DNA of 64,000 nucleotides. It comes from Thermoplasmata archaeon (lineage in GTDB: Archaea; Thermoplasmatota; Thermoplasmata; GCA-020350865). A program made the translations under genes and the position numbers. How positions within the stretch are numbered: the first letter of the stretch is position 1; every line of letters starts with the position of its first letter. Shown here one piece after another: positions 27,312-31,747 of the stretch. The DNA lies in contig CP070751.1 of the NCBI GenBank assembly GCA_020348445.1, positions 3,713,002 to 3,777,001 of the forward strand, written 5' to 3'. Below the pieces are notes generated by a model. The model saw only the letters and a list, made by a program, of their open reading frames with translations, had not been told where the DNA came from and searched no databases.

Positions 27312-27542
27312 ATGCCAAGTATGACGCTATCTATCCCAGAAGATCTCCACTCATTCATTAAAAGACATAATGAAATTCGCTGGAGCGAGATTGCACGGAG
27401 AGCTATGTGGGATTATGCAAAACGATTAGAGATATTGGATCGTATTGCAGAAAAAAGTAAACTTACTGAGAAAGATGTCGAAGAATTAGACAGAATGATA
27501 AAGAAAGCAGTTCACAAACATTATAGGAAGTATACCAAATGA
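27312..27542 (+). CDS. RHH/CopG-like antitoxin
   Basis: MPSMTLSIPEDL...IRWSEIARRA; overlaps toxin start. Confidence 0.8.
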   Translation: MPSMTLSIPEDLHSFIKRHNEIRWSEIARRAMWDYAKRLEILDRIAEKSKLTEKDVEELDRMIKKAVHKHYRKYTK

Positions 27543-27949
27543 GATTCGTAGTGGACACTAACATAATATTTTCTGCACTAATAAAGGATTCAATATCTAG
27601 GAAGATTTTATTATCAACAAAATTTGAGTTTTTTACACCCGAGTACATTTTTGTAGAAATCCAAAATCACTCAGATGAAATTATCAGGAGGTGTGATCTT
27701 GATACTGAGGGTTTTGAACTCATGGTAGATTCATTAATGACTGATGTCATGGTAGTCTCTATCGATGATTTTAAAAAATATATACCAAAGGCATATCATA
27801 TAATGAAAGATATTGATGAATATGATACCTCATTTTTAGCACTTGGATTAATGATAGACGGAGAAGGGATATGGAGTAATGATGCCCATTTTGACAAACA
27901 GAATGCAATTAAGGTGTGGAAAACAAAGGACATGATAAAGCTTCTTTAA
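27539..27949 (+). CDS. PIN-domain (VapC-like) toxin
   Basis: VVDTNIIFSAL...D..D..FLAL...IWSND. Confidence 0.9.
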   Translation: MRFVVDTNIIFSALIKDSISRKILLSTKFEFFTPEYIFVEIQNHSDEIIRRCDLDTEGFELMVDSLMTDVMVVSIDDFKKYIPKAYHIMKDIDEYDTSFLALGLMIDGEGIWSNDAHFDKQNAIKVWKTKDMIKLL

Positions 27950-27963
27950 ATCATTTATAATAT

Positions 27964-28103
27964 CCTGAGCAGGTAGGGGATGGCCAGCACAAGGATATAA
28001 TGGCTAGGGGAGGTATAGGAAGGGCCAAACTCCGCTTGAAATCTAGATGCACCCTCGCCTTCGATGCGTGAGCTATTTATAGCGACGCAAGCGACTGTGG
28101 AAG
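27964..28103 (+). repeat. Repeat copy G, left part (interrupted by IS110)
   Basis: CTGAGCAGGTAGGGGATGGC; GACGCAAGCGACTGTGGAAG at the junction. Confidence 0.65.
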
Positions 28104-28154
28104 ATGGTATGTTTAAATCCGCCTTCGAGATAATGTGCTCGGAGGTGCAGAAGT

Positions 28155-29138
28155 ATGCTATACGCAGGATTGGATGTACATAAAAACTTTTGTCAGGCCA
28201 TAGTAATGACAAAAGGAGGTAAAGTTGTAAAAGAAGATAAGATAGGAACGGAGCAGGAAGATATCGAAGAATTCTTTTATGGGTTGAAGAATGTAAGAAT
28301 TGCGTTTGAGGCATCGATGTATTATGAGTATGTCTACGAAATACTCAATGGATTGGGATATGAAGTATCTCTATCCCATTCATTAAAGACAAGGCTGATA
28401 GCCGAGTCAAGGATAAAGACAGATAAGATCGATGCAAAGGCACTAGCAGATTTGTTACGAGCAGATCCATTGCCAACATCTTATATCCCGCCTGAAGATA
28501 TTCGTAAAGTGAGACATTTAGTCCGTCATAGGATATTCTTAGGAAGACACCGGACCAAATTGAAGAACCATATATATTCAGAGTTGAACCATAGAAACTT
28601 GAAGTTCTGCGGTCCTGATGTGTTCACCAGGGCTGGTATGAAATGGTTGCAGGGATTAAATATCCCAGCAATTAATTCCTACTTGGTAATTTTAGATGCG
28701 GTATTAAATGAAGTAAAATCTGTAGAGTTGAAGATAAAGATTGAAGGTATGAAATATGATGAAGTAAGGTTGTTGAGCACTATACCGGGAATAGGAGTAT
28801 ATTCTGCATTGATAATCCTTTCAGAGATAGGAGACATAAATCGGTTCAGCTCTGAAGAGAAATTGTACTCCTATGCTGGAATGATACCTAGAGTCCATCA
28901 ATCTGGCGATAGTAGTTATCAAGGTAGAATCACGAAGGAGGGTTCTAAACACCTTAGATGGATCTTAGTAGAAGCACTCCGAATCCATATTCAATGTGCA
29001 CCAGATAGTAAGGTCACTCGTTATTATTATCGTCTCAAAAAGAAGAAACCAGGTAATGTTGCTACTATGGCAGGAGCAAGAAAGCTTCTTCAAGTGATTT
29101 ATCATATGTTGAAAAATCAGGATGAATATCGAGGTTAG
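28155..29138 (+). CDS. IS110-family recombinase/transposase
   Basis: DEDD motifs GLDVH, FEAS, KTDKIDA; SYAGMIPRVHQSG. Confidence 0.95.
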   Translation: MLYAGLDVHKNFCQAIVMTKGGKVVKEDKIGTEQEDIEEFFYGLKNVRIAFEASMYYEYVYEILNGLGYEVSLSHSLKTRLIAESRIKTDKIDAKALADLLRADPLPTSYIPPEDIRKVRHLVRHRIFLGRHRTKLKNHIYSELNHRNLKFCGPDVFTRAGMKWLQGLNIPAINSYLVILDAVLNEVKSVELKIKIEGMKYDEVRLLSTIPGIGVYSALIILSEIGDINRFSSEEKLYSYAGMIPRVHQSGDSSYQGRITKEGSKHLRWILVEALRIHIQCAPDSKVTRYYYRLKKKKPGNVATMAGARKLLQVIYHMLKNQDEYRG

Positions 29139-29265
29139 ATGTGCAGACCTTGAGGCGGAGCTTGCGGCATTGCGACCGCCCGTGGAAGATTAAGGTGCAC
29201 ATCTAACCAAGGACGAAGCAGCCATATTGCGGCACTATGACCGCGAATAGGAGCATGTCATAAGT
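29137..29265 (+). ncRNA. Predicted bridge/seek RNA with target- and donor-binding loops
   Basis: Two parallel units guide-GCGG-CA(N4)GA-CCGC-guide; first matches the target, second partly matches the circle junction. Confidence 0.75.
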
Positions 29266-29321
29266 GATATATACAAACGAAAATAATAAGGTATCGTAAA
29301 TTCGGGCGGATTTCACATAGA

Positions 29322-29598
29322 AGCTCCGCCCGAGAGAGTCGACGGGGCGAGCGAGGGGTTGCGACCGGCGAATATATTTGGCGACACAGGGAGCAATTCG
29401 AGTGTTCGAGGTCAGATTTTATGATCGACGCCTCGATATTCCGGACGGAGTGGCCGAAGTGGTTATATGTGATTAATGTCATAGCGGAGAGGGATACAAG
29501 CAAAGTCCCAGTTTCTGGGGCTTAGAAATGGCATGTGGACATGTCCCAACGCCATTTCCGAGGCCTACGTCCGTCTTAAAAAAAAGGAGGGGATTGTC
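29322..29598 (+). repeat. Repeat copy G, right part (A-type end)
   Basis: AGCTCCGCCCGAG...GGGGCTTAGAAATGGC...AGGAGGGGATTGTC. Confidence 0.88.
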
Positions 29599-29676
29599 AA
29601 AACGATTGAGTATTTCGATCTTAAACAAAATATAAATGATGATAGATTATATCTACTTCTTAAGAGCGTGAATTGA

Positions 29677-31383
29677 TTGATAAGAAATACTATTATTACA
29701 TTGACAGTAATGATGTTGTTAATTTTATTTCAAATTCGAGTAATAGCCGATGGAGAAAACGGTCAGGAAAGCTCTTGGTCGGATCCATTTCAACTATCAG
29801 GTCCTCAAACAAATTGCTATATACCGGCAATTGCCGTAAATAATAGTACGGTTCATGTAATTTATTCTCAGCGGAATTATACGGGAATTTATTACAAAAG
29901 AGGTTATAATAATGGTACTATTTGGGAAAATGAAAAATTATTAATAAATGTTACATCGGGAGAACCAGCTATTGCCGTATATAACAATAATGTTCATATT
30001 GTATGGTCAGATTTCAGAAATAATGAAGAAATGAATATTTCAAAAGGATGGGAAATATATTATAAACGAAGTACAGATGGAGGAAATACTTGGTCAGATG
30101 ACATGAGATTAAGTAATGCCGATAATAATATCTCCGGAACCCCTAATATTGTGTGTGAAGGAGATATTGTTCATGTTGTTTGGGGTGATGCAAGAGATAG
30201 TGTTGGGACTATGTATTATGGATATGGCGGGGCGATATATTATAAAAAAAGTGTTGATAATGGCAACAATTGGACAAACGATACAAGAATAAGTGATACA
30301 AAAGTAAAAGCATTCGTCCCTTCTATAGCAATTTCAGGAAATTATGTTTATGTCGCTTGGAATGATAAAAGAGATTATGTAAATGATGAAATATATTTTA
30401 AAAGAAGTATCGATCAAGGTGAAACATGGGAAAATGATACAAGATTAACTTTCTCAGAAAATATTACATCTTATATTCCTGATATTGCTGCAATGAATGA
30501 ATCAGTATATATTACCTGGGAAGAGGATAATTATTATGATGGTGTGTCGTTCATTAAAAGTGAAAATTATGGTCAGACATGGAGTAATATAACCCCTTTA
30601 ACACCTGGAATACATTTTGTAGGAGTACCAAAGATAGGTATTAATGAAAATTATATTCATATTGCATTTGAAAGAGGTGATTCCCTTGGGGGAGATTTAT
30701 TTTATTTAATAAGTAAGGATTTTGGAGAAAATTGGGAAAATATTAGGAAAATTACTTTTAATGAATTGGTATGGAGTTATGTTAATATTTATGTTATGGG
30801 AAATCTATTACATTTCGTATGGACAGATCCGGGTGAAATAAATTCAATTTTTTATATGAATAATTCTAATTTTGGATTAGGTTTCGTAGGAATAGATGTT
30901 GATGGTGATTGGGTAGAAAACAATAATGATGCGTTCCCAGAAGATCCTGCAGCTAGTATAGATTCAGATGGTGATGGATATCCTGACGAATGGAATCCTT
31001 GGAAGACTAGCGAAGACTCAACAACAGGCTTAAATCTTGATGTATTTCCAAATAATGCAGATGAATGGAATGATACAGATAATGATAGTTTTGGAGATAA
31101 TTATGACGCATTTCCAACAAATCCAAATGAGTGGAAAGATACCGATAATGACAGTTACGGAGACAATGAAGACGTATTTCCGAATGACCCAAATGAATGG
31201 ATTGATTCCGATGGTGATGGTATCGGTGATAATACAGATGCATATCCCAACGATCCTTCAAAATGGGAAAGAGAAGAGTCAAAAGAAGATAATTTTCTCT
31301 TGATTTTATTGATTATTTCAATTTTTATTATAATTTTTATAGTCCTAATATATAAAGTCATTAATGGAAGAAGAAAAAGCTAA
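29677..31383 (+). CDS. Surface protein: BNR propeller, TSP3-like Ca-binding repeats, TM anchor
   Basis: KRSTDGGNTW repeats; D.D.DG..D..DAFP.DP.EW repeats. Confidence 0.82.
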   Translation: MIRNTIITLTVMMLLILFQIRVIADGENGQESSWSDPFQLSGPQTNCYIPAIAVNNSTVHVIYSQRNYTGIYYKRGYNNGTIWENEKLLINVTSGEPAIAVYNNNVHIVWSDFRNNEEMNISKGWEIYYKRSTDGGNTWSDDMRLSNADNNISGTPNIVCEGDIVHVVWGDARDSVGTMYYGYGGAIYYKKSVDNGNNWTNDTRISDTKVKAFVPSIAISGNYVYVAWNDKRDYVNDEIYFKRSIDQGETWENDTRLTFSENITSYIPDIAAMNESVYITWEEDNYYDGVSFIKSENYGQTWSNITPLTPGIHFVGVPKIGINENYIHIAFERGDSLGGDLFYLISKDFGENWENIRKITFNELVWSYVNIYVMGNLLHFVWTDPGEINSIFYMNNSNFGLGFVGIDVDGDWVENNNDAFPEDPAASIDSDGDGYPDEWNPWKTSEDSTTGLNLDVFPNNADEWNDTDNDSFGDNYDAFPTNPNEWKDTDNDSYGDNEDVFPNDPNEWIDSDGDGIGDNTDAYPNDPSKWEREESKEDNFLLILLIISIFIIIFIVLIYKVINGRRKS

Positions 31384-31405: not shown

Positions 31406-31747
31406 GACAATCCCCTCCTATTAAGAAAGCGTGCCGAGCATAAGGGGGACGGCTTCGTTTTCGGATTTCGAAGAAATTTGAAAACTAAGTGGGCGAGCGA
31501 AGCGAGACCACGCAGGCGCAGGCACAAGACGGTCTGGGGAGGAAGAAGGTAAGAGCAAAGGACGCAGGCCTCCGTGGAAGCTCCGCCCGAGATAGCCCGT
31601 TTTATTGGGCGAACGAGCAGGTGAAGAAAGCAATAGCAAAATGAGCCAGCGCAGTGAGCGAACGGGGCTTAGAAACGGCATGAGGACAATATCCCAACGA
31701 CATTTCCGAGGCCTGCGTCCGTCTAAAAGAAAATGGAGGGGAATGTC
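31406..31747 (+). repeat. Repeat copy H (full length, 342 bp; contains an empty IS target)
   Basis: Both TIRs; perfect stem 31560-31572/31708-31720. Confidence 0.93.

What the first reader, a model, noticed from the sequence alone, without database searches (positions are those of the whole stretch)
29137..29265. Readable IS110 bridge/seek RNA programmed against the repeat family
Seen: two parallel units. Unit 1: GGCGGAGCTT (29154-63)-GCGG-CATTGCGA-CCGC-CCGTGGAAG (29180-88), closed by AGATGTGCA/TGCACATCT. Unit 2: CAGCCATATT (29219-28)-GCGG-CACTATGA-CCGC-GAATAGGAG (29245-53). The unit-1 guides match opposite strands of the target CCGTGGA-AG-CTCCGCC exactly (minus strand GGCGGAG-CT-TCCAC). The unit-2 guides match the predicted circle junction ACATAGA-AG-ATGGTAT only partly (about 6 of 9-10 nt each). 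Known: IS621 bridge RNA uses such loops around a CT core, and IS1111-type elements encode the RNA downstream of the ORF. Inference: a compact archaeal RNA-guided recombinase with predictable specificity.
Basis: partly seen in the sequence, partly recalled or inferred. Interest (0 to 1): 0.88.

Follow-up and report, generated by a model that had tools for sequence, protein, structure and literature searches.

The report
Archaeal IS1111-type element's guide RNA
A 1.2-kb jumping gene in an archaeal genome carries, just after its recombinase gene, a folded RNA whose loops spell out its insertion site and its own ends; this is a clear new example of the known bridge/seek-RNA mechanism, not a new kind of system.

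Summary
In detail: every motif sits at the stated coordinates. The ORF at 28155-29138 is an intact IS110-family DEDD recombinase with both Pfam domains and D7/E52/D90/D93/S250. The element spans 28104-29323, has 9-bp subterminal inverted repeats and an AG core at both junctions. It is a single copy, inserted precisely in a genomic repeat.

A covariance model built from the 127-nt region 29133-29259 finds the same two-loop RNA beside recombinase homologues in about 60 other loci, mostly archaeal. 95% of cells are paired, and 26 of 29 pairs show compensatory changes.

Across independent insertions the target-loop strands track the flanking DNA. On the right, 5.4 of 7 bases match against 2.8 in controls. 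On the left, 4.3 of 5 match against 1.2. No permutation out of 5000 reached these values.

The core dinucleotide is the same in the target loop and the donor loop in 52 of 53 RNAs. The donor-loop 3' strand equals the right end 7/7 in 38 of 50 relatives. The window's copy differs by one G-to-A change, which still allows rG:dT.

IS1111 seekRNAs, archaeal IS110 recombinases and large-scale bridge-RNA mining are already published, so it is a new member of a known kind. Expression was not tested. This scan has noted archaeal guide-RNA elements before on other DNA, from more divergent families.

The parts
28095..28101 (+). Left target half (LT) flanking the element, CTGTGGA
   Evidence: It matches 6 of 7 to positions 1-7 of the target-loop 3' strand. 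Uninterrupted paralogous repeat copies carry the same sequence joined to the right half.
28102..28103 (+). Core dinucleotide AG at the left junction
   Evidence: The same dinucleotide occurs at the right junction and at the 3' ends of both 3' guide strands.
28104..29323 (+). The insertion sequence (1220 bp, counting one copy of the core)
   Evidence: Boundaries come from comparison with the empty site at 31572-87 and with other repeat copies, and from conserved ends in relatives. It is a single copy in the genome.
28104..28111 (+). Left end (LE) terminal motif ATGGTATG
   Evidence: It is conserved as ATGnnATG in relatives. Its first 4-5 nt are complementary to the donor-loop 5' strand.
28115..28123 (+). 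Left subterminal inverted repeat (9 bp)
   Evidence: It is the reverse complement of 29305-29313. Relatives have subterminal repeats of 4-11 bp.
28155..29138 (+). IS110-family DEDD recombinase gene, 327 aa, intact
   Evidence: PF01548 E=8.8e-20 and PF02371 E=1.7e-25. It aligns to IS621 (PDB 8WT6) with D7, E52, D90, D93 and S250 in place. More than 2000 homologues were found.
29133..29259 (+). Predicted bridge/seek RNA (127 nt); its 5' stem overlaps the tnp stop codon
   Evidence: CM R1 scores 149 bits here, and this is the only hit in the genome. Conserved structure. Conserved G:U pairs show that the + strand is the RNA strand.
29153..29163 (+). [quoted passage not shown]
   Evidence: Its reverse complement equals A-AG-CTCCGCC of the target. 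Family-wide it matches the right flank 5.37 of 7 against 2.84 in controls.
29164..29179 (+). Hairpin capping the target loop (GCGG/CCGC)
   Evidence: All 4 pairs show compensatory changes and 99% of cells are paired. For example, L165 has GCGA/TCGC and L167, L170 and L085 have GTGG/CCAC.
29180..29188 (+). Target-loop 3' strand; same sense as left target plus core, so it pairs with the bottom strand
   Evidence: It is identical to 31572-80 and matches 8 of 9 to its own left flank. Family-wide it matches 4.35 of 5 against 1.15 in controls.
29216..29228 (+). Donor-loop 5' strand; short complementarity to the left end
   Evidence: Only 4-5 nt (AUGG-type) match LE across the family. The core-facing bases are not complementary.
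29228..29245 (+). Hairpin capping the donor loop
   Evidence: 3 of 5 pairs show compensatory changes and 98.8% of cells are paired.
29245..29253 (+). Donor-loop 3' strand; same sense as the right end plus core
   Evidence: Its last 7 nt equal the right end exactly in 38 of 50 relatives. Here the match is 6 of 7, and the difference allows rG:dT.
29305..29313 (+). Right subterminal inverted repeat
29315..29323 (+). Right end ACATAGA plus core AG
   Evidence: The 91%-identical relative L165 has G where this copy has A at 29321.
29324..29330 (+). Right target half (RT) flanking the element
   Evidence: It is exactly complementary to the target-loop 5' strand.
31572..31587 (+). Unoccupied exact copy of the 16-nt target in a neighbouring repeat

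Best explanation
Window 28104-29323 is an intact IS1111-type member of the IS110 family. Its 327-aa DEDD recombinase is followed by a ~127-nt non-coding RNA (29133-29259) that acts as its seek/bridge RNA.

**Structure.** The RNA folds into two stem-enclosed internal loops, each capped by a small hairpin.
[quoted passage not shown] Both overlap the AG core.

**Mechanism.** The recombinase-RNA complex would bring the circle junction (right end-AG-left end) together with CCGTGGA-AG-CTCCGCC in a genomic repeat. It would then exchange strands at the core, inserting the element in one orientation.

**Shown here:** sequence, conserved structure, guide-flank and core covariation, and intact catalytic residues.

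**Inferred from homology with ISEc11/ISKpn4/ISPa11 and IS621:** transcription and processing of the RNA, RNP formation, the circular intermediate and strand exchange.
For: - **Protein.** Both Pfam IS110 domains are present. The alignment to IS621 keeps D7, E52, D90, D93 and S250, and the GMIPRVHQSG motif is present.
- **Architecture.** The left non-coding end is 51 bp and the right is 185 bp. There are 9-bp subterminal inverted repeats and a 2-bp core at both junctions.
- **Precise insertion in a repeat.** Uninterrupted paralogues and an exact empty target exist.
- **RNA structure.** On 35 CM hits, 95.2% of cells are paired against 33-49% when partners are slid. 26 of 29 pairs change on both sides, and no shuffle out of 500 reached this.
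- **Natural reprogramming.** Relatives at 91-67% protein identity have other loop sequences that match their own flanks. Examples are L170/L171, L167/L168 and L085.
- **Statistics on independent insertions.** Right flank: 5.37 of 7 against 2.84. Left flank: 4.35 of 5 against 1.15. No permutation out of 5000 reached either value.
- **Core.** The core in the target-loop 3' strand equals the core in the donor-loop 3' strand in 52 of 53 RNAs (TG, AG, CG, TA). It equals both junctions in 25 of 26 loci.
- **Donor loop.** The 3' strand equals the right end 7/7 in 38 of 50 loci.
- **Guide order.** The top-strand match lies 5' of the bottom-strand match, as published for IS1111 seekRNAs (PMC11187229).
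Against: - No transcript, RNP or transposition evidence exists for this element.
- The element is a single copy, so recent activity in this genome is not shown.
- Its right end differs from the donor guide at one base (29321). Its left flank differs from the target guide at one distal base.
- The donor-loop 5' strand matches the left end over only 4-5 nt. Its core-facing bases are not complementary.
- The free-RNA MFE fold (-50.6 kcal/mol) sequesters part of the guides. The family consensus structure scores -37.6 kcal/mol.
- The pair counts were made on an alignment fitted to the model, which favours the structure.
- No Rfam family matches.
Confidence: 0.88

Rival explanations
1. Only the first module (29133-29208, about 76 nt) is the working seekRNA. 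The element's ends would be recognised mainly by the recombinase binding the subterminal inverted repeats. The second loop would be a processing or stabilising part of a longer precursor, not a donor guide.
For: For ISEc11, the abundant 70-100-nt seekRNA with only the target matches was sufficient, and the role of the long form was left open (PMC11187229). In this family the donor-loop 5' strand matches the left end over only 4-5 nt, and its core-facing bases do not pair. Subterminal repeats are conserved.
Against: The donor-loop 3' strand equals the right end plus core 7/7 in 38 of 50 loci. Its last two bases change together with the core of the target loop in 52 of 53 RNAs. That is hard to explain without a guide role. 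Durrant et al. predict both loops in IS1111 elements (PMC11208160).
Confidence: 0.15
2. The element is a stranded, no longer mobile copy. The RNA and its matches are real but relict.
For: The genome holds a single copy of both the element and the RNA. There is one substitution in the right end relative to the guide and to the 91% relative L165. Three exact empty targets remain unoccupied.
Against: The ORF is full length with all catalytic residues. All RNA stems are intact. The single end difference still allows an rG:dT pair, a type tolerated by IS621 (PMC11208160).
Confidence: 0.2
3. The conserved hairpins act as DNA, for example as cruciform or single-strand recombination sites, or as a transcription terminator for tnp. 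The similarity to the flanks would reflect captured target sequence, not an RNA guide.
For: The structure begins at the stop codon and could terminate or stabilise the tnp mRNA. Part of the first module also scores on the minus strand because it is nearly symmetric.
Against: Three pairs are conserved as G:U or U:G in 27-33 of 35 sequences, which would be C-A mismatches on the other strand or in duplex DNA. The two target halves sit on opposite strands and in swapped order, so they are not a captured copy. Guides differ between close relatives exactly as their flanks do. Homologous elements are shown to use an RNA (PMC11187229).
Confidence: 0.03

Closest known systems
IS1111-family seekRNA elements ISEc11, ISKpn4/ISPst6 and ISPa11 (Siddiquee et al. 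2024, PMC11187229)
   Same: - DEDD recombinase of about 330-350 aa with a G-x-P-x4-SG motif.
- Subterminal inverted repeats.
- A long non-coding region downstream of tnp that encodes the RNA.
- The top-strand target match lies 5' of the bottom-strand match.
- Targets lie in repeated, structured DNA (REP, attC).
- Predicted short (~76 nt) and long (~127 nt) modules resemble the 70-100 and 145-170 nt RNAs.
   Different: - The host is an archaeon, and the clade is mostly archaeal MAG sequences.
- Sequence similarity to bacterial members is low, and no Rfam or named-IS match was found.
- The core is AG/TG/CG/TA on the tnp strand.
- The RNA is not shown experimentally.
IS621 / ISCro4 bridge RNA (Durrant et al. 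2024, PMC11208160; PDB 8WT6, 9T56)
   Same: - Two internal loops, one for the target and one for the donor.
- Each loop has two strands that pair with opposite DNA strands around a shared 2-nt core.
- The donor right-hand pairing is short or discontinuous.
- rG:dT is tolerated.
- The catalytic DEDD and Ser residues are aligned.
   Different: - In IS621 the RNA lies upstream in the left end; here it is downstream.
- The order of the strand matches within a loop is reversed.
- IS621 lacks long subterminal repeats.
- The phmmer match between the proteins is weak (62.6 bits, E=3.2e-16).
IS1111-attC group (ISKpn4, ISPa25 and others; Post and Hall 2009, cited in PMC11208160)
   Same: A site-specific IS1111 relative that inserts at one position and in one orientation in a repeated element separating unrelated genes.
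   Different: The repeat here is not shown to be an attC site. No tyrosine recombinase was found in the window.
Haloarchaeal IS110-family elements (for example on Halanaeroarchaeum sulfurireducens pHSR2-01 and a Haloarcula plasmid)
   Same: The recombinases are 37-41% identical over the full length. The same RNA family is detected by model R1 at 32.6-37.7 bits.
   Different: The RNA lies immediately upstream of tnp there, in the IS110-like arrangement, not downstream.

Membership tests
IS110 family (DEDD transposase/recombinase) | N-terminal DEDD_Tnp_IS110 (PF01548) plus C-terminal Transposase_20 (PF02371) | tested here: met
   71.5 bits and 89.7 bits, both above the curated cut-offs.
IS110 family (DEDD transposase/recombinase) | Catalytic D-E-D-D in the RuvC-like domain and the conserved Ser of the SG motif | tested here: met
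   The alignment to IS621 (8WT6) places D7, E52, D90, D93 and S250 at the catalytic columns.
IS110 family (DEDD transposase/recombinase) | No long target duplication; a short core shared by target and element ends | tested here: met
   AG is present at both junctions and once in the empty sites.
IS1111 subgroup | Subterminal inverted repeats of 7-17 bp | tested here: met
   A 9-bp repeat at 28115-23 and 29305-13, set 11 bp and 10 bp in from the ends.
IS1111 subgroup | The longer non-coding region lies downstream of tnp | tested here: met
   51 bp upstream against 185 bp downstream. Some clade members have the RNA upstream instead.
IS1111 subgroup | Recombinase groups phylogenetically with IS1111 rather than with the IS110/IS621 branches | not tested
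   No tree with named ISfinder members was built. Only the G-M-I-P-x4-S-G motif and the length (327 aa) fit.
Bridge RNA / seekRNA | Structured RNA with internal loops whose two strands match opposite strands of the target around the core | tested here: met
   Exact 10-nt and 9-nt matches to the target. Covariation with flanks across 43 and 26 independent insertions.
Bridge RNA / seekRNA | A second loop matching the element's own ends (donor) and sharing the same core | tested here: met
   The 3' strand equals the right end in 38 of 50 loci, and the cores agree in 52 of 53. The 5' strand matches only 4-5 nt.
Bridge RNA / seekRNA | Conserved secondary structure with compensatory changes | tested here: met
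Bridge RNA / seekRNA | The RNA is transcribed, binds the recombinase and is required for and directs insertion | not testable with these tools
No experiment was possible.
Any Rfam family | Match to a curated covariance model | tested here: not met
   only chance-level snoRNA hits (E above 1) in 27900-29700.

The most novel reading that the evidence does not exclude
This mostly archaeal clade may be a distinct sub-type of bridge system. In it, one RNA module sits on either side of the recombinase gene in different members. The right-target guide uses a variable register against the core. The window lineage and a sister lineage (L085) have been retargeted to two positions of one host repeat that separates unrelated genes, which would be an archaeal counterpart of IS1111-attC elements policing a cassette-like array.
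Probability: 0.15. Interest if true: 0.55.

Novelty: new member of a known kind. Interest (0 to 1): 0.33.

Why it matters
The mechanism itself is published: IS621 bridge RNA, IS1111 seekRNA, and large-scale mining that includes archaeal genomes. The value here is as a clean natural example.
- It is a small archaeal recombinase (327 aa) with a short RNA whose four guide strands can be read directly.
- A graded series of relatives (91% to about 40% identity) carry the same scaffold with other guides. This gives a ready-made natural reprogramming table, and candidate orthologues for archaeal genetics or for editing tools.
- It also annotates a repeat family in this genome as the element's landing site.

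Tried and rejected
- **Rfam scan of 27900-29700.** It gave only chance-level snoRNA hits.
- **Single-sequence folding.** The MFE fold pairs part of the guides (GGCGG with CCGCC) and disagrees with the conserved hairpin. I rejected it in favour of the covariation-supported structure.
- **Naive search for the left target.** Taking the best match of the 3' guide upstream of tnp was noisy. I replaced it with end-finding by the ATGnnATG motif plus the subterminal repeat.
- **Lineage checks.** No VPS28 (that control was uninformative), no actin-family hit and no MCR alpha were found, so the lineage remains unnamed beyond 'archaeon'. Family-level relatives (4 genomes) lack the element.
- **RNA promoter.** A TATA-like stretch in the last tnp codons is confounded by coding constraint and is not conserved in distant relatives.
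- **Integron-like explanation of the repeat.** No tyrosine recombinase lies in the window. I did not pursue this further.

Full report
**Observation.** Reading 27400-29700 confirms every string and coordinate in the finding.

Unit 1 has these parts:
- a 13-bp stem (29133-45 with 29196-208) that begins inside the last codons of the upstream ORF
- a 2-nt bulge and a 5-bp stem (29148-52 with 29191-95)
- an internal loop with a 5' strand at 29153-63 and a 3' strand at 29180-88
- a capping GCGG/CCGC hairpin (29164-79)

Unit 2 has a 4-bp stem (29212-15 with 29256-59) and loop strands at 29216-28 and 29245-53. It is capped by a 5-bp hairpin (29228-45).

The 16-nt target is present exactly at 31572-87. 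It occurs three times exactly in the 5.16-Mb genome and nine times with up to two mismatches, mostly in copies of a repeat family. In window shuffles 0.08 matches at up to 3 mismatches are expected, and 3 are seen.

**The element.** The ORF at 28155-29138 encodes 327 aa with PF01548 and PF02371. It aligns over its full length to IS621 recombinase (PDB 8WT6). D7, E52, D90, D93 and S250 sit in the catalytic columns, and a GMIPRVHQSG motif is present.

Comparison with the empty site and with uninterrupted repeat paralogues places the element at 28104-29323 (1220 bp). AG occurs at both junctions. A 9-bp subterminal inverted repeat lies at 28115-23 and 29305-13. The non-coding ends are 51 bp upstream and 185 bp downstream.

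These are the published hallmarks of the IS1111 group (PMC11187229; PMC11208160). The element and its RNA are single copy in the genome. The genome carries an archaeal SSU rRNA fragment.

**Relatives.** Protein searches found more than 2000 homologues. The closest come from metagenomes and archaeal MAGs. Contigs for proteins at 91%, 75% and 74% identity were fetched.

In these contigs the scaffold of the downstream region is nearly unchanged, while the loop strands of unit 1 differ. For example, in L170 and L171 the 5' strand is the reverse complement of TG-CCTCGCA, which is exactly the right flank. The 3' strand ends in CAAGT-TG, which matches the left flank in L170 and differs at one base in L171.

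L167 and L168 are two different insertions of one element. They have related flanks that match a third guide pair imperfectly.

L085 (67% identity) sits in the same host repeat family as the window's element but about 40 nt upstream of the window-type target. Its guides match that position (the corresponding window sequence is at 31528-44).

A covariance model (R1) finds the RNA beside the recombinase gene in about 60 loci. On 35 hits:
- 95.2% of cells are standard pairs, against 33-49% when partners are slid.
- 26 of 29 pairs change on both sides.
- No shuffle out of 500 reaches the observed covariation.

The alignment was fitted to the model, which favours the structure. The slid controls and the independent alifold result argue that the signal is real.

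Three pairs are conserved as G:U or U:G. This fixes the plus strand as the RNA strand.

For the window sequence the consensus structure scores -37.6 kcal/mol against an MFE of -50.6 kcal/mol, in which guide bases self-pair. The free RNA may therefore mask its guides.

**Guide-flank test.** I located right ends by the last 7 nt of the donor-loop 3' strand. These match exactly in 38 of 50 loci, 40-130 nt downstream of the RNA. I located left ends independently, by an ATGnnATG motif plus the subterminal repeat.

| Comparison | Independent insertions | Observed match | Control (non-cognate pairs) | Permutations reaching observed |
|---|---|---|---|---|
| Target-loop 5' strand vs right flank | 43 | 5.37 of 7 | 2.84 | 0 of 5000 |
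| Target-loop 3' strand vs left flank | 26 | 4.35 of 5 | 1.15 | 0 of 5000 |

The core dinucleotide at the end of the target-loop 3' strand equals that of the donor-loop 3' strand in 52 of 53 RNAs (TG, AG, CG, TA). It equals both junction cores in 25 of 26 loci. Sharing one core between the two loops is the defining logic of bridge recombination (PMC11208160).

**Details that differ from a simple picture.**
- The first two bases of the 9-nt 3' strand are usually G and U and match the flank poorly, so the effective left guide is about 5 nt plus the core. The window's copy is unusual in matching all 9 at 31572-80.
- The 5' strand faces the core in a variable register, with 0-2 spacer bases before the hairpin. 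It often carries CU whatever the core.
- The donor-loop 5' strand matches the left end over only 4-5 nt, and its core-facing bases do not pair. This recalls the discontinuous RDG-RD pairing of IS621.
- The window's right end has A at 29321 where the guide and the 91% relative have G. This leaves an rG:dT pair, a type tolerated by IS621.

**Comparison with what is known.** In IS1111 seekRNAs the top-strand match lies 5' of the bottom-strand match, as it does here. Short (70-100 nt) and long (145-170 nt) RNA forms are reported, probably processed from the tnp transcript. The first module here is about 76 nt and the whole RNA about 127 nt.

The following are already published:
- The seekRNA authors state that the IS1111 family is abundant in bacteria and archaea.
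- 662 archaeal IS110 recombinases have been catalogued.
- Bridge RNAs were predicted in 93% of ISfinder IS1111 elements.
- A 2026 preprint mines bridge RNAs across bacterial and archaeal intergenic space.

The finding is therefore a new member of a known kind. Earlier notes of this scan on the same window agree on the insertion. Earlier follow-ups on other genomes described more divergent archaeal guide-RNA elements.

**What is shown and what is inferred.** Shown: the sequences, the boundaries, the conserved structure, the covariation of guides with flanks and of the two cores, and the intact catalytic residues. Inferred by homology: transcription and processing, RNP formation, the circular intermediate and strand exchange at the core. 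No expression data could be obtained.

**Verdict.** Confidence that this is a genuine seek/bridge RNA locus is about 0.88. Interest is about 0.33.

Noticed in passing
L173:1057-1170, L174:1049-1173; also L018:2396-2507, L040:2389-2498, L106:918-1028, L112:485-596, L115:575-690, L137:1356-1475: In haloarchaeal plasmid copies (37-41% identical recombinase) and several MAG loci, the same RNA family lies immediately upstream of tnp instead of downstream. Within one recombinase clade the element junction has therefore moved relative to the RNA-tnp pair.
   Followed up: partly
L085:1687-1900 and window 31528-31544: A sister element (67% identical recombinase) from a metagenome sits in the same repeat family, about 40 nt upstream of the window-type target. 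Its guides match that other position. An intact window-type target lies in its right flank.
   Followed up: partly
window 29321: The right end has A where the donor guide and the 91% relative L165 have G. The target also has A at the equivalent position just 5' of the core. The difference could be a point mutation or a product of heteroduplex resolution at a slightly wider crossover.
   Followed up: no
window 28112-28118 and 29267-29276: There are TATA-like stretches in the left subterminal repeat (TTTAAAT, about 37 nt before the start codon, followed by GGAGGTG) and in the right end (GATATATAC, conserved in close relatives). The second could drive transcription across a circle junction, or outward into flanking DNA.
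   Followed up: no
window 27312-27949: A small ORF (76 aa, no Pfam hit) overlaps the start of a PIN_2-domain gene (136 aa) directly left of the element, which looks like a toxin-antitoxin pair. Metagenome contig L166 has a MazE-like/PIN pair downstream of its copy of the element.
   Followed up: no
window 29304-29331: The right subterminal repeat (GGGCGGA) and the right target half (TCCGCCC) form an inverted repeat across the right junction. The target-loop 5' strand therefore resembles the element's own subterminal repeat in this lineage.
   Followed up: no
genome C1:1864225-1864380 and C1:1870162: A fragment matching the phage-integrase family (98-aa open frame) lies about 5.8 kb from another exact copy of the 16-nt target.
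   Followed up: no
L100:1611-1742 (+) and L100:1844-1970 (-): Two RNA hits in convergent orientation lie within 230 nt on one metagenome contig. This suggests two related elements inserted tail to tail.
   Followed up: no
genome C1 (whole): The single-contig genome contains 35,300 N. Only the last ~120 nt of the SSU rRNA is readable. The repeat family that hosts the target has roughly 30-40 copies, with 14 of 38 TIR-motif hits in this window.
   Followed up: partly
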